Shown here in pieces: positions 2,701-61,794 of a stretch of DNA of 64,000 nucleotides. This DNA comes from Candidatus Micrarchaeota archaeon (lineage in GTDB: Archaea; Micrarchaeota; Micrarchaeia; Norongarragalinales; SBBD01): the NCBI GenBank assembly GCA_018819225.1, contig JAHJQN010000004.1, positions 273,715 to 337,714 on the forward strand. The letters are read 5' to 3'. Made by a program: the position numbers and the translations under genes. A model generated the notes under the pieces. The model searched no databases. It was given only the letters and a program-made list of their open reading frames with translations, and was not told where the DNA came from. Numbering within the stretch: position 1 is the first letter of the stretch; each line of letters begins with the position of its first letter.

Positions 2701-3864
2701 ATGGCCGTACAGTTTGAACTCGACGACGACAAGTTACTAGTCAAAGACCTCATTTCCGTGCAAGCCCTTGACCGCGGATACTTTGGAACCGATTTTCAAG
2801 GTAAAAAAAATTTGCTCGAACTCATTCCAGAGGAAGCCTTGTACCTGATGGACGTACGCAATGCGATCTGCCTGAAAAAAAAGCGAAAAATTTCATTTAA
2901 CCAAGTCGCCCGAAGACACAACAAGGAAAAGAAGTTTCTGGCACGATACTTTTGTTACAAGGATTGGCGCGATCGCGGCATCATTGCCCGACGAATTGAT
3001 CGCACGGACACCGAATACGGAAGAAGTCCCGTGGTCAAGTACCCATCGAAAGAATTCCTTCCACTACGCATCCACGCCAAGGCGATGTTCTTCTCCGACG
3101 ATCTCATGGCCATCATTGATGACGAAACCGAAGGTCAGCGGGTCTATGAAGAACGATGGTTCGGACAATACGGAACCTATAAAGCCAAAAAGCACGGCCG
3201 ATTTTTGAAACTGGATGCGTACGAAACCTTGTTTCTCATCAAGCACGCCGGATTGAAAACCAATGTCAGTGAAACGCAATTGATTCGAGCCTGCCAAAAA
3301 CGACGAAAAGACTTTCTCGCGCTCTATGAAGTGTTTGAAGACTGGCGTCTGCGTTCATTCGTACTCAAAACGGGTTTCAAGTTCGGAACGCATTTTCGCC
3401 TATATTTTCCGGGCGCATCCCCGAAACTAGGCAATGAAGAGTGGATGCATAGCAAGCACGTCATTCACGTGTTCCCTCGCGAAAATAAGATGTTAATTAG
3501 CGAATGGGCCCGCGCCATACGGGTGGCACACGGCGTCAAAAAAACGTTTATTCTCGCGATACCGGGGGTGAAAACTGAAAAACCAGCGGAAGTCGATTTC
3601 TTGTTGTACCACCGCAAGAAAGGCGGCCTCATCGAAAACCCAAAACAGGATTCCCCGAAATTTGTTATGCTTGCTTTGAGCGAAGAAGAAGAAATTGGAG
3701 GAGAAGAATTGGCGCAAGCCATTGAAAAATCTAAGGGAATGGGGTTGGATCTCATGCTCGCGATCTGCGACCGAGAAACCGCCATAACCTACTATCGAGT
3801 GAAGCGCGTCGAGCTCCCGAAAAGCAAGTACGAGTACTATGAGATTGAATGGAAGCAACCCTAA
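2701..3864 (+). CDS. endA: tRNA-splicing endonuclease, three-unit (epsilon2-like) fused form
   Basis: Two segments align to the M. jannaschii EndA catalytic domain: YFCYKDWRDRGIIA, and LYEVFEDWRLRSFVLKTGFKFGTHFRLYFPG...HSKHVIHVFP...WARAIRVAHGVKKTFILAIP with Tyr/His/Lys catalytic positions. A third C-terminal unit has LAICDRETAITYYRVKRV. Preceded by a GGAGGAG RBS. Confidence 0.75.
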   Translation: MAVQFELDDDKLLVKDLISVQALDRGYFGTDFQGKKNLLELIPEEALYLMDVRNAICLKKKRKISFNQVARRHNKEKKFLARYFCYKDWRDRGIIARRIDRTDTEYGRSPVVKYPSKEFLPLRIHAKAMFFSDDLMAIIDDETEGQRVYEERWFGQYGTYKAKKHGRFLKLDAYETLFLIKHAGLKTNVSETQLIRACQKRRKDFLALYEVFEDWRLRSFVLKTGFKFGTHFRLYFPGASPKLGNEEWMHSKHVIHVFPRENKMLISEWARAIRVAHGVKKTFILAIPGVKTEKPAEVDFLLYHRKKGGLIENPKQDSPKFVMLALSEEEEIGGEELAQAIEKSKGMGLDLMLAICDRETAITYYRVKRVELPKSKYEYYEIEWKQP

Positions 3865-3880
3865 TCCGAACGCATCCGAC

Positions 3881-4741
3881 TTACATGCGTCTCGAGATGT
3901 AAAACCCTCCGATCAAAATGATGAGGACGCCTACGGCTTGCTCGACGGAAAGCCATTCATTGAACCAAACCATTGAAAAGAACGCCGTTATAACGGGGGC
4001 TAACATGAGGAACGTCGATGAAAGAGTCGCCCCCGCGGTTTCAATGGATTTGAGGATGAAAAAAGAGGAAAGGAACACGAAAAATCCTAACAGAACGATC
4101 CATTCGAATGCCTCGAACGGAAACGCCCATTGATTCCAAAGAATCGCTGCGAGTAACAGAAAAAGGGTGCCGAAGAGAACGCGACCCGCAATGATGAGTT
4201 GAATGGAGACGCGCTCATTCAATCGTTTAACATACACGTTCGTAAAACCCACGATTCCCCCGGAAATGACGACGAGTATATCGCCGAAATTCGGAATAAA
4301 GAATTGACCATTCGTGGAAACCAAGAACATGCCGATCACCATGACACCAAAAACAATCGCAAACGCTTTCGGAAGACGCTCTTTCAAGAAAAGATATCCG
4401 AACCAAGCGGTAAAGATGGCCACGAAAGCCTGTGAGAGACCTAAACTGACGGTAGAGGTCAACGTTAAGGCGTAGAGTTGGAGAAGAATCGTAATCCCCC
4501 CTGCAAGAATTCCAACCAGGATCAAATCCCGCCAGTCCGTTAACGTGAGACGGTGCACCGACGCATTCATCAAGAAGAGAGGAATCGATAGAATGGAGGC
4601 CACCAATGCCATGTACAACGAGATCGAAAAAAAGTCTGCTCCCGTTCGAAGAGCAAACCGCTGAATAATAAACGAAAAACCGAGGAAAAAAGAAGCCAGA
4701 AAGAGGTAAAATAATGTGCGGGAATTCACGAAAAATTTCAC
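3881..4741 (-). CDS. DMT-superfamily (EamA-like) transporter
   Basis: 286 aa, about 10 TM helices in two repeated halves, typical EamA topology. Confidence 0.55.
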   Translation of the reverse strand: MKFFVNSRTLFYLFLASFFLGFSFIIQRFALRTGADFFSISLYMALVASILSIPLFLMNASVHRLTLTDWRDLILVGILAGGITILLQLYALTLTSTVSLGLSQAFVAIFTAWFGYLFLKERLPKAFAIVFGVMVIGMFLVSTNGQFFIPNFGDILVVISGGIVGFTNVYVKRLNERVSIQLIIAGRVLFGTLFLLLAAILWNQWAFPFEAFEWIVLLGFFVFLSSFFILKSIETAGATLSSTFLMLAPVITAFFSMVWFNEWLSVEQAVGVLIILIGGFYISRRM

Positions 4742-13423: not shown

Positions 13424-13560
13424 GAATAAAATTTACCCGACGTGAGTATAAAAACGAAACGTATCAAGAACCTCATGCGGCGTGTTGGATTAGAGCCATT
13501 CAAGCAAACCTTTTCTTTTAAAAGAAAAGCCTTACCAAAAGAATATCGCAGTTCATAAGC

Positions 13561-13659
13561 GCCTCCGTAGCTCAGGGGTAGAGCGCCTGTCTTGTAGGGA
13601 TGGTTAGAAACGCGTTCCAAGAAAACAGGAGGTCGCGAGTTCAATTCTCGCCGGAGGCT
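13561..13659 (+). tRNA. tRNA-Thr(TGT) with 27-nt canonical (37/38) intron
   Basis: Hand fold: acceptor GCCTCCG/CGGAGGC, D arm GCTC-AGGGGTA-GAGC, anticodon stem CCTGT/ACAGG with loop CTTGTA|intron|A, T arm GCGAG-TTCAATT-CTCGC, discriminator T. Intron about 13597-13623. Confidence 0.8.
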
Positions 13660-23059: not shown

Positions 23060-23310
23060 GAATGCAGTCTCCAAGCTGGCCGGGGAGCTAGAGGTTCCCT
23101 ATCATCGCCAATCCTCTTTACGGCGAGCGGTGGTTGGAGCGAGGAAAAGACGTCAACGTGCAGTCCGGTCAACGCCGTCGATGTCTCGCCTCATGTTATG
23201 TTTTTGAGTACGAATGGGCCAGGCCGGAAGGAGCAACCCTAAGCACTGAAGAGCATGCTCATGAGAACCGAGGCGGAGGCAATGATTGGAGTCCCTGCAT
23301 GCGGACGTTT
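23060..23310 (+). ncRNA. candidate signal recognition particle RNA (7S/SRP RNA)
   Basis: GGGCCAGGCCGGAAGGAGCAACCC (23213-23240) matches the domain IV/helix 8 consensus (CAGGNCCGGAAGGNAGCA with a GGAA tetraloop). The 5' TGCAGTCTCCAAGC can pair with the 3' TTGGAGTCCCTGCA. TATA-like ccttaaaaa lies about 25 nt upstream and a T7 run follows directly. Confidence 0.5.
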
Positions 23311-23314
23311 TTTT
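23308..23314 (+). terminator. oligo-T terminator after the SRP RNA candidate
   Basis: TTTTTTT directly after the predicted 3' helix. Confidence 0.4.
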
Positions 23315-23356
23315 CAAAGCCCAACGTGCTCGGAGGCTGCACTCTTTACACTCGCG

Positions 23357-39095: not shown

Positions 39096-39216
39096 AGCGG
39101 GGGACGAGAATCGAACTCGTCTAATCCGCTCGCTGCAAAAACCCCCATTCTAAGATAAAATGGATATCGAACGGGTTTTACTGCAGGCGGATGCATAACC
39201 AATCTGCCACCCCCGC
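39096..39216 (-). tRNA. tRNA-Cys(GCA) with ~49-nt canonical intron
   Basis: Minus-strand fold: GCGGGGG acceptor, anticodon stem TCCGC/GCGGA with loop CTGCAG|intron|A, T arm ACGAG-TTCGATT-CTCGT, 3' CCCCCGC, discriminator T. The exons resemble M. jannaschii tRNA-Cys. Confidence 0.7.
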
Positions 39217-51064: not shown

Positions 51065-51179
51065 GGGCTCGTAGCTCAGCCGGCAGAGCGATCGGCTCTT
51101 AACCGATAGGTCGAGGGTTCGAAACCCGTTTTATTCCCGTGAAAAATAAAGCGCTTATGCGAAACTCCCTCCGAGCCCG
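51065..51179 (+). tRNA. tRNA-Lys(CTT) with ~42-nt intron in the T-loop region (non-canonical position ~59-61)
   Basis: GGGCTCG acceptor, anticodon stem ATCGG/CCGAT with loop CTCTTAA, T stem GAGGG + TTCGAAA, then 42 nt before CCCTC-CGAGCCC-G. CGAAAC is repeated at both junctions, so the exact splice sites are ambiguous. Confidence 0.6.
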
Positions 51180-55658: not shown

Positions 55659-55670
55659 CCATTTTCACGT

Positions 55671-55688
55671 CTGAGTGCAGGGGGAGGG
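55671..55688. repeat. att-like copy 1 of tRNA-Leu 3' end
   Basis: CTGAGTGCAGGGGGAGGG; 18 of 19 nt match the tRNA-Leu 3' end including part of the T stem. Confidence 0.55.
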
Positions 55689-56724: not shown

Positions 56725-56773
56725 CTACAAACCCGCAAGCGTAGTCACCCAATGCGCAAACCCCTGGAACTCA

Positions 56774-56799
56774 CAGCCCAAGGCTGAGTGCAGGGGAAG
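56774..56799. repeat. att-like copy 2 of tRNA-Leu 3' end
   Basis: CAGCCCAAGGCTGAGTGCAGGGGAAG vs tRNA-flank CAGCCCAGGGCTGAGTGCAGGGAGAG (24 of 26). Confidence 0.6.
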
Positions 56800-56832
56800 T
56801 AGCTCAAGCCAACGTCTTGCTGCAGTCTCTGA

Positions 56833-57189
56833 TCACTTGCGTTTGTAACCGAACCGCTTATCGTATGTCCCGTGAGGACTGATTTCAAGGACGAAGGCAA
56901 CAATTTCAACTTCTGTTCCCCCTTCGGTCAGCGAATACAGCATTCTCCAGAATTGAGGGAGTTCTACGCGGAACAGGTTCTTGATCCCGTACTTCCGCTT
57001 GTACTCGTCAGGAATCTTATCTTTAGAGATGGGCTCTCCATAATGAATGTTGGCCTTGATCAGCTCGACTTTTTTATTGATTGCGTTCAGGATGCTCCTG
57101 TCGCGTTTTGACTTGGGTGCTCGCTCATTCAAATACCGGTACACTTTCTCAGCTTCCGGCGAGAGAACGACTCGGACGGTCTTGTTCAT
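56833..57189 (-). CDS. RelE/ParE/YoeB-superfamily toxin-like protein, cassette 3
   Basis: 118 aa. YGEPISKDKIP...WRMLYSLTEGGTEVEIVAFVLEISPHGTYDKRFGY; paralogue of 55308-55658. Confidence 0.45.
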   Translation of the reverse strand: MNKTVRVVLSPEAEKVYRYLNERAPKSKRDRSILNAINKKVELIKANIHYGEPISKDKIPDEYKRKYGIKNLFRVELPQFWRMLYSLTEGGTEVEIVAFVLEISPHGTYDKRFGYKRK

Positions 57190-57461
57190 AGCTCAAGGCC
57201 TCTGGCAATGGCTTTCCTGAGAGCAGGATTGTCATTGGCGATCCATGAAATACCTTTCAGGGAAACAGCGATCTTGTTGCTGGCCTCCAAATATTCTAAA
57301 ATAACCATCAAGGTATAGTGGTTGACCTGCTTCGGAAGCATTCTTTTCAGTTCGGCAATTGTAATGACGCTCTTCTTCATGTTTGCCAAAACCTCTTCCA
57401 CCATGATGACGGTTTTCAAGTTCGGCGCATGCGCAAATTCCACGTTATACATAGTCATCAC
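57186..57461 (-). CDS. small winged-helix-like protein (putative antitoxin/regulator), cassette 3
   Basis: 91 aa; ATGA overlap with the downstream toxin-like gene; paralogue of 55018-55311. Confidence 0.45.
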   Translation of the reverse strand: MMTMYNVEFAHAPNLKTVIMVEEVLANMKKSVITIAELKRMLPKQVNHYTLMVILEYLEASNKIAVSLKGISWIANDNPALRKAIARGLEL

Positions 57462-57621
57462 TTTATTTTACAAATTCATAACCTATTTGTATTTATTAGT
57501 ATATTTAAGCCTTTCGGTACCTCGTTTTAACTAATCAAAGGAAATAGGTAGAAGCGTACAGCCTATAGGGGAAGTCACCGTAGACGATTCTACAGCTGGG
57601 CACTTCCAGCCCAGGGCTGAG

Positions 57622-57766
57622 TGCAGGGAGAGGGATTTGAACCCTCGAAGCTTCTACAGCACAGGATTTCCTAAAACCCTTTCTTTTCTCGTCGAGGTCT
57701 TTTCTTTACAAAAAGAAAAGAGGTCGCTTAAGTCCCGCCCCTTTGACCGAACTTGGGTACCCCTGC
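57622..57766 (-). tRNA. tRNA-Leu(TAA) with ~59-nt canonical intron
   Basis: Minus-strand fold: GCAGGGG acceptor, D arm CCC-AAGTTCGGTCAAA-GGG, anticodon stem CGGGA/TCCTG with loop CTTAAG|intron|A, long variable arm GCT-GTAGA-AGC, T arm GAGGG-TTCAAAT-CCCTC, 3' TCCCTGC-A. The exons resemble archaeal tRNA-Leu. The intron forms a long perfect hairpin. Confidence 0.7.
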
Positions 57767-57848
57767 GTAAACCTTTTTTTAATGAAAGCTTAAAAGCGTC
57801 ATGGATACGCCTAGATGAATGAACTCATAGGCGTTAATGCGCCGCGGA

Positions 57849-58013
57849 TTACTTGCCTCCGCCCTTGGCTTCCTTTCGGCGCGCGCGCTTGGGTCGCAAA
57901 TGAGGATAATTGCACTTGCGGCACTTCACCGTCCCTTTCGGATTGCGCGTCTTGCATTTCAAGCAAACGACGACCGATAGAAACGCTTTGTCAGCTAAAG
58001 GAAACTTGCCCAT
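57849..58013 (-). CDS. rpl40e: 50S ribosomal protein L40e (54 aa; absent from the ORF track)
   Basis: Translation MGKFPLADKAFLSVVVCLKCKTRNPKGTVKCRKCNYPHLRPKRARRKEAKGGGK has the eL40 C4 zinc-ribbon pattern (C-x2-C...ARNP...C-RKCG...LRPK). Confidence 0.7.
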   Translation of the reverse strand: MGKFPLADKAFLSVVVCLKCKTRNPKGTVKCRKCNYPHLRPKRARRKEAKGGGK

Positions 58014-58134
58014 ACTGGTTCACGAAAACTTCTGTAAAAGAAGAGAATACTGGTATGGCTACCAACGTTTTTAAAGGCTATTTTGTCCTAAGAAAGAGGT
58101 AGCTGCTTCTTTACCCCGATGGTTGATTTGACAT

Positions 58135-58295
58135 GCCTCCGTAGCTCAGTAGTAGAGACGGAACCTTTTCTTTTTTAATAGAAAAGCTTCACCAAAAGAA
58201 GAAGCGAATAAAAGCGCCTCCGTAGCTCAGTAGTAGAGCGCGAACCTTTTCTTTAATAAAGAAAAGCTTCACCAAAAGAAAGCGCGTATTCCCAT
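58135..58295 (+). repeat. two tandem ~80-nt units, each = tRNA-Thr 5' half (positions 1-25) + promoter-like spacer, preceding the intact tRNA-Thr(GGT)
   Basis: GCCTCCGTAGCTCAGTAGTAGAG(A/C)(C)G at 58135 and 58216. Each is followed by GAACCTTTTCTTT(TT)AATA(A)AGAAAAGCTTCACCAAAAGAA, which is homologous to the region upstream of tRNA-Thr(TGT) at 13507-13545. Confidence 0.6.
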
Positions 58296-58367
58296 GCCTC
58301 CGTAGCTCAGTAGTAGAGCGCTTCCTTGGTAAGGAAGAGGTCGCGGGTGCGATTCCCGCCGGAGGCT
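58296..58367 (+). tRNA. tRNA-Thr(GGT), intronless
   Basis: GCCTCCG-TA-GCTC-AGTAGTA-GAGC-G-CTTCC-TTGGTAA-GGAAG-AGGTC-GCGGG-TGCGATT-CCCGC-CGGAGGC-T. Confidence 0.85.
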
Positions 58368-58380
58368 TGAATTCTTTTTT

Positions 58381-60468
58381 TTAATTTCGTATCTTCTTGT
58401 GAATGACGCGTTTACGTTTGTCGTGGAAGAACCAAGCACTCGCTACAGCCACTGAAAAGAGTAGAATAAGCCAGACGCTGTTAGAGAAAAGACCTCGTTC
58501 CTCTTGACGACGTCGATATTCTTGTTCAGCCGCAAGATACCCTGACTCTCCCCGCAAAACGGTTTGTTTCGGAATCCCCACCATCAATGGACTGCCACCA
58601 GGAGGCCAGCGAGTCGGAACCGGTGAAGGAGTGACCGTGGATTCGGGCTCGCCCATTCCAGAAGGAACGTACTCCAGATCATTCGTTATCAACAGCTTGT
58701 CTAATTGCATTCCATCCTCACGGTTGCGAACCGTCAACGTATGGAAACCAGCGGAAAGATCAAACGCAAGAGGATCCAAAGGAGGAGAACGGCTGTTCGC
58801 GACATCCCACCGCCACACGTTGCCGCCCGCCGTATCCCAAATATATTCTGCACCGCCATCCATGCGAATGAACACGCTGTCTGCTGCCGTGTGAGGAGAC
58901 AATTCACGACCCCAAACGCGATATTCTCCTGAAACGGGAACCTCGAAAGAATAGGTCAAGAGGTCGGCGTCGCCGCCTGCATTGAACGGAACGAGCACGA
59001 ATTCGCCATTGGAAGCGTCTTCATCCACATCAATGACCCACGCTCCGAGCAAGGACGAAAAGTGTTCGGCCTCCACCCAATAATAGGAGTATCCCGGAAC
59101 AGCCGTAGGAGAACATGAACCCAAACAACATACGCCGGACCCGCAATACCCTTCATCCTCCAAGAAACAATCATCGTAGAAACCGCAGTTGGCGCGACAC
59201 GACCCACCCAATGCTTCGCAAGGAACGGGTGTCGGCGTGCTCGTGCACGATCCGATACAGCAGATTCCAGTCGAACAATAACCCTCGGCATCCCAAACGC
59301 ATTCATTGAATTGACTACAATCCTCTAAACATTGTCCGCCCAAATCCTCCTCGCAATAAATATCCGAGCCGCCGCCTTCAAAAGTCAGCGTGGCCTGGAT
59401 GAGATTGAAGGAATCGAACGATCCTTGTCCGGAAAACACGAGCCAAACCGTTTCTCCATTCGCGCTGATCCACTTGCTCGGAAAATTGTAAAAGAATGAA
59501 GGCTCGTAATCCCAAGAATCAAAAATGGCTACGGTATACCAGGGCCCCCAAGGATTCGGTGCCTCAAAAATAGACATGCCGCTACCTGAAACCCCGCCGT
59601 TGTCTCCCACGTGGTGATCGCCGACCAATAAGTACCTCCCCGAAGGAGAATGATACGTGACAACCGGAGGTGCCCAACCCACATTCTCTTTAATGAAAAC
59701 GGGTTGTCGGAGAGTCAAGTCATTCGTCCATTGGTTTAAACCAGTCGAGAATTCATACTGATCCCGATCCCAAATGAAATCTTTAGGAACGCGCATTAAA
59801 TCCACTTCCCCGGGAACCTGAACCTTGAGACCGGTAGCATCCTTCAACCGCGTCGCGTACATATACACGAATCCATCCGGCGACGCCGCATCCTCCCCGT
59901 ACTGCGAGATGCTGGGTAAAATCAATTCGTTTTCTTCAGTGAACATCCAATTGTTTTGAAGTTCCCAAGTTGCCCCATGATCGTACGAACGCGCCAGCCT
60001 CGCATTATCGTAATTCATATTATTGGAACCCGGACTGACCCACATGTATAATACGCCATCAATGGAAACGATCCCGTAAGACTTGCCGGTAAACGTAGCG
60101 GGATTTTCTGCAGCACACGAAGCAGGAGGCGCATGTTCTGGATTTTCGCAACTGCCGTCCCCCAACGCATGGCACCCCCATAAATTGACGGGCACGAAAT
60201 CGACGGCATCCCCTTCAATGCGAGTTAAACCCAAACTAGCGCGACAAAGGGTATTGGATCCTTCAAAACCGCCTCCGTCACCCCAACTCGTGTATTGATG
60301 ACCGTCATCCGCCCAAGTCATCGGAAAATTATCGCTTCCTGAAGCGGCATTGAAATAGGTCGCAGGATTAAACGAGATGTCGGTAATGACGGTGCTTGAC
60401 GGATACGCCACGTTCAGCGAAAGAAAACATATGAAAAAAACAAGAAAGGTACGGAATGCCCCTCGCAT
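58381..60468 (-). CDS. large secreted/surface protein: N-terminal glycoside-hydrolase-like/beta-propeller-like region, two 8-Cys modules, shared ~150 aa domain, C-terminal TM anchor
   Basis: Signal peptide. Modules CEEDLGGQCLEDCSQFNECVWDAEGYCSTGICCIGSC and PCEALGGSCRANCGFYDDCFLEDEGYCGSGVCCLGSC. The domain YYWVEAEHFSS...LLITNDLEYVPSGMGEP is paralogous to 10580-13423. C-terminal TM. Confidence 0.7.
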   Translation of the reverse strand: MRGAFRTFLVFFICFLSLNVAYPSSTVITDISFNPATYFNAASGSDNFPMTWADDGHQYTSWGDGGGFEGSNTLCRASLGLTRIEGDAVDFVPVNLWGCHALGDGSCENPEHAPPASCAAENPATFTGKSYGIVSIDGVLYMWVSPGSNNMNYDNARLARSYDHGATWELQNNWMFTEENELILPSISQYGEDAASPDGFVYMYATRLKDATGLKVQVPGEVDLMRVPKDFIWDRDQYEFSTGLNQWTNDLTLRQPVFIKENVGWAPPVVTYHSPSGRYLLVGDHHVGDNGGVSGSGMSIFEAPNPWGPWYTVAIFDSWDYEPSFFYNFPSKWISANGETVWLVFSGQGSFDSFNLIQATLTFEGGGSDIYCEEDLGGQCLEDCSQFNECVWDAEGYCSTGICCIGSCTSTPTPVPCEALGGSCRANCGFYDDCFLEDEGYCGSGVCCLGSCSPTAVPGYSYYWVEAEHFSSLLGAWVIDVDEDASNGEFVLVPFNAGGDADLLTYSFEVPVSGEYRVWGRELSPHTAADSVFIRMDGGAEYIWDTAGGNVWRWDVANSRSPPLDPLAFDLSAGFHTLTVRNREDGMQLDKLLITNDLEYVPSGMGEPESTVTPSPVPTRWPPGGSPLMVGIPKQTVLRGESGYLAAEQEYRRRQEERGLFSNSVWLILLFSVAVASAWFFHDKRKRVIHKKIRN

Positions 60469-60510
60469 GGAACCACCTATTTCTTACTAGTCTTCCTCGG
60501 TTTTAATAAG

Positions 60511-60556
60511 TGCGGGCTTTGCACCTTTTGGGCGAGCCACGCCGGAGGCTTACGGA
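60511..60556. repeat. direct repeat A containing a tRNA-Thr 3'-end-like core (CGCCGGAGGCTTACGGAAA)
   Basis: GTGCGGGCTTTGCACCTTTTGGGCGAGCCACGCCGGAGGCTTACGG; 42 of 46 nt identical to repeat B. The core matches the tRNA-Thr(TGT) 3' end + flank (CGCCGGAGGCTTCCGGAAA). Confidence 0.55.
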
Positions 60557-61101: not shown

Positions 61102-61147
61102 TACGGGCTTTGCACCTTTTGGCCGAGTCCCTCCGGAGGCTTCCGGA
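61102..61147. repeat. direct repeat B containing a tRNA-Thr 3'-end-like core (CTCCGGAGGCTTCCGGA)
   Basis: GTACGGGCTTTGCACCTTTTGGCCGAGTCCCTCCGGAGGCTTCCGG. Confidence 0.55.
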
Positions 61148-61728: not shown

Positions 61729-61775
61729 CGGAATCGGTTTAAGCGAACGAATGGATGGGGGTATATCGTTTGAAT

Positions 61776-61794
61776 GAGTCCGGCCGGAGGCTCT
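61776..61794. repeat. direct repeat C (GAGTCCGGCCGGAGGCTCT), partial tRNA-Thr 3'-end-like core
   Basis: Shares GAGTCC..CCGGAGGCT with repeat B. Confidence 0.4.

What the first reader, a model, noticed from the sequence alone, without database searches (positions are those of the whole stretch)
58135..58367. tRNA-Thr(GGT) preceded by two tandem ~80-nt copies of its own promoter + 5' half
GCCTCCGTAGCTCAGTAGTAGAG(C/A)G, which is tRNA positions 1-25, occurs three times at an 80-81-nt period. Only the third copy continues into a complete tRNA. Each copy is preceded by a palindromic TATA-like element (CTTTTCTTTAATAAAGAAAAG) and AAGCTTCACCAAAAGAA, which is also found upstream of tRNA-Thr(TGT) at 13507-13545. 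Each truncated copy therefore carries a plausible promoter. The layout could be transcribed tRNA 5'-half small RNAs, a Nanoarchaeum-style split-tRNA remnant, scars of repeated recombination at tRNA position 25/26, or promoter amplification. It looks superficially like a CRISPR array but is not one.
Basis: seen in the sequence. Interest (0 to 1): 0.6.

Follow-up and report, generated by a model that had tools for sequence, protein, structure and literature searches.

The report
Orphan 5' copies before tRNA-Thr gene
An intact threonine tRNA gene in a tiny archaeon (Micrarchaeota) is preceded by two leftover copies of its own first 23-26 bases, most likely recombination scars of a kind already described at the same tRNA in another archaeon; the hairpin element between the copies is the more unusual part.

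Summary
The repeat is real. GCCTCCGTAGCTCAGTAGTAGAG occurs exactly three times (58135, 58216, 58296), and only the third copy is a full tRNA-Thr(GGT). The window is from a Micrarchaeota genome, on a 709-kb ENA contig. The spacer "E" is not simply a promoter. It is a hairpin followed by a purine tract that mirrors the hairpin's purine arm, which suggests a triplex. In this phylum E sits mostly inside tRNA introns or just after tRNA 3' ends, in either orientation. A distant relative (L019) has one orphan 5' copy at the orthologous locus, with the same GAG|A|CG junction and its own D-loop variant. L008 has a 12-nt remnant. Nine other syntenic relatives have none. Direct repeats of tRNA ends around short hairpin inserts or toxin-antitoxin cassettes are common in these genomes and in this window. 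The closest precedent is the tRNA-Thr(GGU) 5' fragment (positions 1-27) in Caldiarchaeum (Sugahara 2012). Best reading: non-functional direct-repeat scars of insertion or recombination at tRNA position 23-26, later doubled and kept identical by gene conversion. Split-tRNA, cis-splicing, CRISPR and artefact readings are poorly supported. Expression of the orphan copies is untested.

The parts
58135..58160 (+). Orphan copy T#1. It equals tRNA-Thr(GGT) positions 1-23 exactly (58135-58157) and is followed by A-CG, that is positions 24-25 with a 1-nt A insertion.
   Evidence: The same GAG|A|CG junction is present in L019.
58161..58215 (+). Spacer 1. It holds E module copy E1 (imperfect hairpin at 58165-58186, purine tract R2 at 58194-58204) and a 15-nt leader ending AAAAGC.
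   Evidence: The E core is 37/40 identical to E2, while the leader matches at only 7/17 aligned positions.
58216..58241 (+). Orphan copy T#2. It equals tRNA positions 1-26 exactly.
58242..58295 (+). Spacer 2. It holds E module copy E2 (perfect hairpin CTTTTCTTT-AAT-AAAGAAAAG at 58246-58266, mirror purine tract AAAAGAAAG at 58274-58282) and the leader of the intact gene.
58296..58367 (+). Intact, intron-less tRNA-Thr(GGT), the only functional-looking copy.
   Evidence: 71 bits, full-length model match.
58066..58076 (.). A/T-rich TATA-like stretch between the divergent L40e gene and T#1. It is a candidate ancestral, possibly bidirectional, promoter. This is inferred only.
   Evidence: Sequence. 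In relatives a comparable A/T-rich stretch (e.g. AATTTATATTAATT in L010) lies between L40e and tRNA-Thr.
57849..58013 (-). Ribosomal protein L40e gene, used as the synteny anchor. It lies divergent to tRNA-Thr(GGT) in all Micrarchaeota loci examined.
13507..13545 (+). Paralogous E module upstream of tRNA-Thr(TGT), which lies at 13561-13659 and has a 27-nt intron.
57679..57720 (-). E module (hairpin at 57699-57720, mirror tract at 57679-57689) inside the canonical intron of tRNA-Leu(TAA), 57622-57766 on the minus strand.

Best explanation
The two upstream copies are non-functional direct-repeat scars.

A short segment was inserted into the 5' part of the tRNA-Thr(GGT) gene at about position 23-26. 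This segment consists of the E hairpin/triplex module, a leader, and the first ~23-26 nt of a tRNA-Thr gene. The insertion happened in a way that duplicates the target, so an intact gene is regenerated on the downstream side. This is the Campbell-type outcome of site-specific or homology-driven integration. Template switching to a paralogous tRNA-Thr gene would give the same result.

T#1 stays at the ancestral position next to L40e. The working gene now lies 161 nt further downstream, behind an E copy whose A/T-rich centre may serve as its TATA box. The second unit arose either by a second such event or by unequal crossing-over between the T repeats.

The T blocks remain identical because they are corrected against the selected gene by gene conversion.

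Shown: the anatomy, the comparative distribution, the family nature of E, and the abundance of analogous repeats. Inferred: the insertion mechanism, the conversion, and the lack of function of T#1 and T#2.
For: 1. The order is T-E-T-E-tRNA, with no E before T#1. A simple tandem duplication of promoter plus 5' part would give E-T-E-T.
2. L019 has the same L40e/tRNA-Thr synteny, with L40e only 71% identical. It carries one orphan copy of its own positions 1-23, including its own G16 variant, 112 nt upstream. That copy has the same GAG|A|CG junction but an unrelated spacer.
3. In both genomes the spacer is homologous to the upstream region of a paralogous tRNA-Thr gene of the same genome. In the window this is Thr(TGT), 89% over 38 nt. 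For L019 it is the Thr(CGT) gene of the same MAG (L003), alignment score 45 over 58 nt.
4. L008 has a 21-nt repeat (-9 to +12) flanking a 183-nt insert that is homologous to the L019 spacer.
5. Among 57 tRNAs examined, about 10 show duplicated terminal segments around inserts of 46 nt to 1.1 kb, against roughly 1.3 such matches expected by chance (my estimate). One of these inserts (L067) begins with an E module.
6. In the window itself, tRNA-Thr and tRNA-Leu 3'-end repeats delimit toxin-antitoxin, Fic and DUF4185 cassettes.
7. Published precedent: the Caldiarchaeum tRNA-Thr(GGU) 5' fragment (positions 1-27) lies upstream of the complete gene across a 1.87-kb insert, with an intron at 24/25 (PMC3293823).
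8. Unit comparison gives T 23/23, E core 37/40 and leader 7/17. T is therefore homogenised while the neighbouring leader has drifted.
Against: - No integrase or element body lies between the repeats. The 'inserts' are only 54-58 nt, too small for a double-stranded circular intermediate.
- No integrase was found among the 20 window proteins scanned.
- No attP-like copy was found in viral contigs.
- In other loci the repeats include locus-specific leader or trailer bases (L008, L003). This fits a local duplication better than a foreign attP.
- The perfect identity of T#1 and T#2 with the gene, and the conservation of the orphan copy in L019, could equally reflect function.
- The evidence rests on only three loci with a 5' orphan copy.
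Confidence: 0.55

Rival explanations
1. Plain local tandem duplication by replication slippage or unequal sister exchange, possibly provoked by the hairpin/triplex-forming E sequence, with no insertion event. The outcome would be promoter/leader amplification of no consequence or of mild benefit.
For: The units are head-to-tail with a constant 80-81-nt period, and the E cores are 92% identical. Polypurine mirror repeats are known to stall replication forks (PMC5027492, abstract seen in the listing). The breakpoint coincides with the 3' end of the D-arm hairpin.
Against: An exact tandem duplication of [E+T] predicts an E upstream of T#1, and none is detectable. A 1.4- or 2.4-copy array starting with the tRNA piece needs an earlier T-E-T state. 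L019 and L008 have T-spacer-T with spacers unrelated to their upstream flank. The leaders of the two units are only 7/17 identical, although T is 100% identical.
Confidence: 0.2
2. The orphan copies are functional. Either they are independently transcribed 5' tRNA-half small RNAs (T followed by a hairpin and a T-run), or they are a structured leader that regulates processing or expression of tRNA-Thr.
For: T#1 and T#2 are identical to the gene while the adjacent leader has diverged. The L019 orphan copy tracks its own gene at position 16. In the window, L019 and L008, T is followed within 3-6 nt by a stable hairpin and a T-rich stretch. A TATA-like centre lies about 40 nt upstream of T#2. The 240-nt region folds better than shuffles (z = -3.1).
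Against: L008 has lost positions 13-23 of its orphan copy. Nine other syntenic Micrarchaeota loci lack any orphan copy. T#1 has no recognisable E/TATA at the distance seen for T#2 and T#3. Identity can be explained by gene conversion. No expression data are available.
Confidence: 0.12
3. Split tRNA: T#1 and T#2 are 5' halves that are trans-spliced to a separately encoded 3' half, for instance of tRNA-Thr(CGU), as in Nanoarchaeum or Caldivirga.
For: The genome encodes a 387-aa three-unit splicing endonuclease of the broad-specificity ARMAN-2 type (PMC3239211). tRNAs in the window carry canonical and non-canonical introns. The 23-nt 5' segment is shared by Thr(CGT), Thr(TGT) and Thr(GGT) genes of the phylum.
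Against: An intact tRNA-Thr(GGT) is adjacent. Relatives have intact Thr(CGT) genes. No orphan 3' half was found in the window. The sequence after T is the generic A/U-rich E hairpin, not a GC-rich splint.
Confidence: 0.03
4. Cis-splicing: the stretch from one T copy to the next is removed as a bulge-helix-bulge intron, so that T#1 or T#2 becomes the 5' exon.
For: A broad-specificity endonuclease is present. Caldiarchaeum tRNA-Thr has an intron at 24/25.
Against: Because the 'intron' ends with the same bases as the exon, the central 4-bp helix would have to be a palindromic tetramer. The only candidates are AGCT (9-12) and GCGC (23-26). These lack the outer helix, or would give a product with GA instead of TT at positions 27-28 (manual check on the sequence). 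RNase P can mature T#3 directly.
Confidence: 0.02
5. Assembly artefact (a mis-expanded repeat).
For: The source is a short-read MEGAHIT-style contig (k141 name).
Against: The units differ by many substitutions and indels, and the period of 80 nt is shorter than a read. An independent MAG from another study (L019) shows the same kind of orphan copy. The identical locus is on record in the source contig, and two other contigs share the neighbouring genes.
Confidence: 0.02

Closest known systems
tRNA-Thr-F / tRNA-Thr-II locus of Caldiarchaeum subterraneum (Sugahara et al. 2012, PMC3293823)
   Same: It involves the same tRNA species, Thr-GGU. A 5' fragment (positions 1-27) lies upstream of the complete gene as a direct repeat, and the breakpoint and intron are at 24/25. 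[quoted passage not shown]
   Different: In Caldiarchaeum the repeats flank a 1.87-kb insert with a putative recombinase, and there is one fragment. Here the inserts are 54-58 nt with no gene, the fragments number two in tandem, and the phylum is different (Micrarchaeota).
att direct repeats of integrated archaeal viruses and plasmids (SSV-type and pNOB8-type integrases), as summarised in PMC3293823
   Same: A partial tRNA copy lies at one border and a reconstituted intact tRNA at the other. The same window has cassette arrays bounded by tRNA 3'-end repeats.
   Different: There is no integrase and no element body. Known cases mostly involve 3' portions and kb-scale elements.
Split and tri-split tRNA genes (Nanoarchaeum equitans, Caldivirga; review context in PMC3218864 and PMC3239211)
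   Same: An isolated 5' tRNA piece is present in an archaeon with a broad-specificity splicing endonuclease.
   Different: An intact gene is adjacent. No complementary 3' piece or splint sequence was found.
CRISPR array
   Same: There are regularly spaced ~25-nt direct repeats with ~55-nt intervening sequences.
   Different: The 'spacers' are copies of one another (core 37/40 identical). The repeat is a tRNA 5' end, and there are only three repeats.
Related tRNA introns found at different positions and in different genes (tRNA intron transposition in Thermoproteales; recalled from the literature, not read here)
   Same: One sequence family (E) recurs in introns at different positions and in different tRNAs, as well as in leaders and trailers.
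   Different: E also occurs outside introns and in both orientations. It carries a mirror-repeat (triplex-type) signature that is not described for those introns.

Membership tests
Integrated-element att repeats at a tRNA gene | Direct repeat identical to a terminal segment of the tRNA, with an intact tRNA at one end | tested here: met
   T#1 (23 nt) and T#2 (26 nt) are identical to the gene's 5' end, and the intact gene lies at the downstream end.
Integrated-element att repeats at a tRNA gene | Mobile element body (integrase or other genes) between the repeats | tested here: not met
   Only 54-58 nt lie between the repeats. No recombinase domain was found in the 20 neighbouring or candidate proteins scanned.
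Integrated-element att repeats at a tRNA gene | Matching attP on an extrachromosomal element | tested here: inconclusive
   No match was found in IMG/VR for the 23-mer. The junction pattern gave one match, which is an unrelated phage tRNA-Met. Plasmids of Micrarchaeota are hardly sampled.
Split tRNA gene | No intact gene for the same tRNA; the 5' and 3' pieces are encoded apart | tested here: not met
   An intact tRNA-Thr(GGT) lies directly downstream.
Split tRNA gene | The 3' piece has a leader complementary to the trailer of the 5' piece (BHB at the junction) | tested here: inconclusive
   None was found in the 64-kb window. The rest of the 709-kb genome could not be searched.
BHB (archaeal) tRNA intron | hBHBh' or a relaxed variant at both splice sites, giving the correct mature sequence | tested here: not met
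   A manual check of all registers was made on the sequence. The required self-complementary tetramers (AGCT, GCGC) lack the outer helix or give a wrong product.
CRISPR array | Conserved repeats separated by unique spacers | tested here: not met
   The spacers are 92% identical in their 40-nt core, and the repeat is a tRNA 5' end.
Archaeal promoter (TATA box about 25-30 nt upstream of the transcription start) | A/T-rich octamer at an appropriate, constant distance from the gene | tested here: inconclusive
   The hairpin centres lie 40-41 nt upstream of T#2, T#3 and tRNA-Thr(TGT). Their loops are pure A/T, unlike the intronic E copies. However, the same module occurs in introns and in antisense orientation, and no transcription-start data exist.
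Known RNA families (Rfam 15) | Covariance-model match to the spacer/E module | tested here: not met
   No match was found at E<=10 in 57000-58700, nor at E<=0.01 in 17 E-containing loci.

The most novel reading that the evidence does not exclude
E is a folded single-strand (triplex-type) module that spreads among the 'discarded' parts of pre-tRNAs in DPANN archaea: introns, leaders and trailers. When it lands within a tRNA exon it is accommodated by duplication of the terminal tRNA segment. T-E-T arrays like this one would then be fresh intermediates on the road to tRNA intron gain or gene splitting, and the orphan 5' copies would be transcribed from E-borne TATA-like centres as 5'-half RNAs. 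The same tripartite motif at the ends of bacterial MITE-like elements would point to a shared recombination mechanism that acts on folded single strands.
Probability: 0.15. Interest if true: 0.75.

Novelty: new variant of a known kind. Interest (0 to 1): 0.48.

Why it matters
How archaeal tRNA genes acquire introns, fragments and split halves is an old open question. The only population-level model (Caldiarchaeum, 2012) rests on one locus, which is also tRNA-Thr(GGU), broken at position 24-27.

This work finds the same tRNA broken at the same place in an unrelated phylum, in a miniature and tandem form. It occurs next to arrays of cassettes bounded by tRNA-end repeats. Together these suggest that the 5' D-arm region of tRNA-Thr is a recurrent recombination site, and they provide compact loci where the mechanism could be dissected.

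The tRNA-associated mirror-repeat hairpin module is not in Rfam, and I did not find it described in the searchable literature. It may be of independent interest for RNA or DNA triplex biology and for the origin of tRNA introns.

Tried and rejected
- **Metagenome scan for tRNA-Thr(GGT).** A scan for the D-arm plus anticodon arm found nothing.
- **Viral-contig scans.** Scans for the 23-mer and for the GAGACG junction gave nothing, apart from an unrelated phage tRNA-Met.
- **Decayed 5' copy upstream of paralogs.** A decayed copy upstream of tRNA-Thr(TGT) in the window was not significant (p = 0.16). The same test at tRNA-Thr(CGT) of L003 was also not significant (p = 0.27).
- **Decayed E upstream of T#1.** Not significant (p 0.2-0.4). 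The L019 upstream flank compared with its spacer was also not significant (p about 0.28).
- **Cis-splicing BHB between T copies.** Rejected by hand.
- **CRISPR.** Rejected, because the spacers are copies of one another.
- **Rfam match for E.** None found.
- **Identifying the bacterial look-alike of E.** It was unannotated in PLSDB hits and absent from the E. coli and phage collections. Rfam gave only a sub-threshold TwoAYGGAY hit next to one copy. Reading the Pasteurella locus showed that it forms the inverted ends of a ~430-bp element. Not pursued further.
- **Integrase search.** Negative in the 20 window proteins scanned. The rest of the window was not scanned.
- **Closer relatives.** The best L40e identity in the protein collection is 86%. 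Copy-number polymorphism of the array could therefore not be examined, and the two other contigs with the identical CorA were not shown by the tool.

Full report
**Observation**

The 23-mer GCCTCCGTAGCTCAGTAGTAGAG occurs exactly three times on the + strand, at 58135, 58216 and 58296, with none expected in shuffles. Tandem Repeats Finder reports 58131-58321 with period 80 and 2.4 copies. The repeat finder gives spacings of 81 and 80 nt.

Only 58296-58367 is a tRNA. ARAGORN calls tRNA-Thr(GGT), and Rfam gives a full-length match of 71 bits. Even at E<=10, no partial tRNA match covers the upstream copies.

- Copy 2 (58216-58241) matches the gene through position 26.
- Copy 1 (58135-58157) matches through position 23 and then reads A-CG, that is positions 24-25 with one extra A.
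- The perfect palindrome CTTTTCTTTAATAAAGAAAAG is at 58246-58266.
- The palindrome before copy 2 is imperfect (58165-58186).
- Copy 1 has none. Its upstream 80 nt are not significantly similar to the spacers (p 0.2-0.4).

The real order is therefore T-E-T-E-tRNA. The similarity to the region upstream of tRNA-Thr(TGT) is confirmed: 13507-13543, 89% over 38 nt.

**Context**

Exact matches to the 23-mer in GTDB genomes are all Candidatus Micrarchaeota. The window is 100% identical to ENA ERZ27247117 contig k141_304414, which is 709 kb.

The tRNA is divergent from the ribosomal protein L40e gene (57849-58013, minus strand). A tRNA-Leu(TAA) with a ~60-nt intron follows L40e at 57622-57766 on the minus strand. 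The window also encodes a 387-aa three-unit tRNA splicing endonuclease (2701-3864). This is the same length and domain make-up as the broad-specificity epsilon2 enzyme of ARMAN-2 (PMC3239211). Its tRNAs carry canonical and non-canonical introns.

**Unit comparison**

Between units 1 and 2:

| Segment | Identity |
|---|---|
| T block | 23/23 |
| 40-nt E core (GAACC...AAAAGAA) | 37/40 |
| 15-nt leader between E and the next T | 7 of 17 aligned positions |

The leader of unit 1 (..GCGAATAAAAGC) is closer to the tRNA-Thr(TGT) leader (..GTTCATAAGC). If the leader reflects neutral drift, the orphan T blocks cannot have stayed identical by chance. They are either corrected against the gene (gene conversion) or constrained. 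This step is inference.

**The spacer is a member of a family, not just a promoter**

The element has three parts:
- a pyrimidine arm (Y);
- its complementary purine arm (R1), which forms a hairpin with Y;
- a second purine tract (R2), 5-15 nt downstream.

R2 is the mirror image of R1 and tracks it when the numbers of A on either side of the G change. In L010 at 6318, R1 is GAAAGAAAAAG and R2 is GAAAAAGAAAG. In L147, R1 is GAAAGAAAAAA and R2 is AAAAAAGAAAG. Across 38 archaeal instances the mirror match is longer than the direct match in 22, shorter in 2 and tied in 14. R2 cannot form regular Watson-Crick pairs with Y. The pattern is what an intramolecular purine-motif triplex in a single strand (RNA or DNA) would require. 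This is inference; no structure was probed.

In 242 kb of Micrarchaeota loci I count 20 distinct instances. Sixteen lie inside tRNA introns (canonical and T-loop), 5-10 nt after a tRNA 3' end, or 29-31 nt upstream of a tRNA. Two of them are antisense to the tRNA. Examples:
- the intron of the window's own tRNA-Leu (hairpin at 57699-57720);
- both introns and the trailer of tRNA-Leu in L010;
- the intron of tRNA-Thr(GGT) in L154;
- the intron and trailer of tRNA-Arg in L005.

A metagenome scan with the exact motif returned more than 120 hits. About ten are archaeal and tRNA-associated. Most of the rest are a bacterial repeat. In Pasteurella this repeat forms the inverted ends of a ~430-bp MITE-like element. 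No Rfam family matches.

The three copies that lie upstream of tRNA-Thr genes in the window have purely A/T centres (TTTTAAAA, TTTAATAAA, TTTTTTAATA), located 40-41 nt from the tRNA start. The intronic copies have G/C in the loop. Use of these copies as TATA boxes is therefore possible but untested.

**Relatives**

The L40e/tRNA-Thr(GGT) divergent arrangement is conserved in every Micrarchaeota locus fetched through L40e homologues.

- Nine distinct loci have no orphan copy: L010/L014, L018, L142, L143, L144, L145, L147/L149, L152 and L154.
- L019 (MAG PPR_0039, L40e 71% identical) has GCCTCCGTAGCTCAGGAGTAGAG followed by A-CGT, 112 nt upstream of its gene. The 23 nt equal its own gene, including its G16 variant. 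The junction GAG|A|CG is the same as at T#1 of the window.
- The L019 spacer is unrelated to E but strongly similar to the upstream region of tRNA-Thr(CGT) of the same MAG (L003; score 45 over 58 nt). This parallels the window, where E1 and E2 resemble the region upstream of tRNA-Thr(TGT).
- L008 has a 21-nt repeat (-9 to +12) around a 183-nt insert homologous to the L019 spacer.

The three genomes with orphan copies share the TTCC/GGAA anticodon stem. The others have TGCA/TGCA-type stems.

**A general habit of these genomes**

I searched 57 tRNAs for exact copies of at least 11 nt of their ends within 1.5 kb. Orphan 5' copies turned up only for tRNA-Thr(GGT). Duplicated 3' ends turned up at about eight other genes (roughly 1.3 chance hits expected by my estimate). 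Read in detail:

| Locus | tRNA | Repeat | Insert |
|---|---|---|---|
| L003 | Thr(CGT) | 38 nt (18 nt of tRNA + 20 nt of trailer) | 46-nt GACAC...GTGTC hairpin |
| L133 | Val | 19 nt | 75 nt |
| L067 | Pro | 15 nt | 132 nt, beginning with an E module |
| L018 | Thr(GGT) | 11-14 nt | 1.1 kb (HEPN/nucleotidyltransferase pair) |
| L154 | Thr(GGT) | 11-14 nt | 0.5 kb |

In the window itself, tRNA-Thr 3'-end-like repeats lie at 60527-60556, 61118-61147 and 61769-61792. tRNA-Leu 3'-end repeats lie at 56766-56801 and 55666-55688. These repeats delimit a DUF4185 protein, four ParE/RelE-type pairs and a Fic gene, all between the core genes MsrB and CorA.

All of these have the form 'terminal segment - insert - terminal segment' with the intact gene preserved. 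That is the outcome of integration with target duplication, not of a simple tandem duplication.

- *Split tRNA.* An intact gene is adjacent. Relatives have intact Thr(CGT) genes. No orphan 3' half was found in the window. The rest of the genome is untested.
- *Cis-splicing.* The putative intron ends with the same bases as the exon, so the central BHB helix would need a palindromic tetramer. AGCT (9-12) and GCGC (23-26) fail on the outer helix or on the product (manual check).
- *CRISPR.* The spacers are copies of each other.
- *Artefact.* The units differ at many positions, and an independent MAG shows the same feature.
- *Promoter amplification or 5'-half RNAs.* These cannot be excluded without transcript data.

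**Mechanism proposed**

1. An insertion at position 23-26 of the tRNA-Thr(GGT) gene brought in a segment carrying a hairpin module, a leader and a copy of the first ~23-26 nt of a tRNA-Thr gene. This could have occurred by site-specific or homology-driven (Campbell-type) integration, or by template switching to a paralogous tRNA-Thr gene. Either route gives T#1-insert-intact gene.
2. In the window lineage the insert is of the E type, and the unit was doubled by a second event or by unequal exchange between T repeats.
3. The T blocks are kept identical by conversion against the selected gene.

The shared GAG|A|CG junction in the window and L019 suggests either common descent of T#1 or a sequence-specific crossover point. 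The Caldiarchaeum paper notes that attP/attB mismatches are inherited at such borders. Steps 1-3 are inferred; what is shown is the anatomy and the distribution.

**Comparison with known cases, and novelty**

The closest case is the Caldiarchaeum subterraneum tRNA-Thr(GGU) locus. There a 5' fragment (positions 1-27) lies upstream of the complete gene across a 1.87-kb insert with a putative recombinase, the gene has an intron at 24/25, and the authors suggest that tRNA-Thr is a preferred target (PMC3293823).

The present locus shares the tRNA, the position and the direct-repeat logic. It differs in having gene-less 54-58-nt inserts, two tandem units, and a different phylum. I rate it a new variant of a known kind.

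The mirror-repeat E module and its link to tRNA introns, and to bacterial MITE-like ends, is the most novel by-product and remains unexplained.

Noticed in passing
window 57622-57766 (-): tRNA-Leu(TAA) with a ~60-nt canonical intron. It is missed by default ARAGORN and by the Rfam gathering pass and found only with permissive filters (38 bits). The intron contains an E module.
   Followed up: yes
window 60527-60556, 61118-61147, 61769-61792; 56766-56801, 55666-55688: Direct repeats of the tRNA-Thr and tRNA-Leu 3' ends (plus a shared ~47-nt arm at 60510 and 61101) delimit small cassettes between the core genes MsrB and CorA. The cassettes are a DUF4185 secreted protein, four ParE/RelE-type toxin-antitoxin pairs and a Fic gene. 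The pattern looks like serial site-specific insertion at tRNA ends; no integrase was seen.
   Followed up: partly
E module: window 13509-13545, 57679-57720, 58165-58204, 58246-58282; L010 6318-6540; L005 3652-3830; L154 2794-2860; L067 1928-2180: Tripartite element: a pyrimidine arm, its complementary purine arm, and a downstream purine tract that mirrors and co-varies with the purine arm (triplex-type). It is strongly associated with tRNA introns, trailers and leaders in DPANN archaea, occurs in both orientations, and has no Rfam family.
   Followed up: partly
L141 2499-2925 (Pasteurella multocida NZ_CP020346.1, between dapF and the DUF484/xerC genes); >100 bacterial metagenome contigs (L021-L139): Nearly the same tripartite sequence (..CTTTTCTTTG-loop-CAAAGAAAAG..CCAAAAGAAAG, with the loop complementary to the following bases) forms the terminal inverted repeats of a ~430-bp MITE-like element. 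It is widespread in bacteria, unannotated, and has no Rfam match.
   Followed up: partly
window ~51065-51179 (+): tRNA-Lys(CTT) with a non-canonical intron in the T arm. Rfam matches only model positions 8-63, and the acceptor 3' strand CGAGCCC lies ~40 nt further on.
   Followed up: no
window 2701-3864 (+): 387-aa tRNA splicing endonuclease with two matched stretches each of the N-terminal and the catalytic domain. It has the same length as the three-unit epsilon2 enzyme of ARMAN-2.
   Followed up: partly
window 23069-23335 (+): Archaeal SRP RNA match below Rfam's gathering score (80.8 versus 96.5 bits, E = 2e-16), full model length.
   Followed up: no
L003 ~4570-4665 (minus strand); L133 2530-2630; L067 2136-2290: Short 'tRNA 3' end - hairpin insert - tRNA 3' end' arrangements with 15-38-nt repeats. 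These are the 3'-side counterpart of the finding. Several hairpin inserts share a GACAC...GTGTCG foot.
   Followed up: partly
L143 ~3700-3760 (minus strand): An orphan tRNA 3' fragment (GGGTTCAAATCCCTTCTAGGGGC) lies 52 nt downstream of tRNA-Thr(GGT). It belongs to a different tRNA.
   Followed up: no
window 39096-39216 (-): ARAGORN with intron search predicts a tRNA-Gly(GCC) with a 50-nt intron between two ORFs. Rfam does not report it even at E<=1.
   Followed up: no
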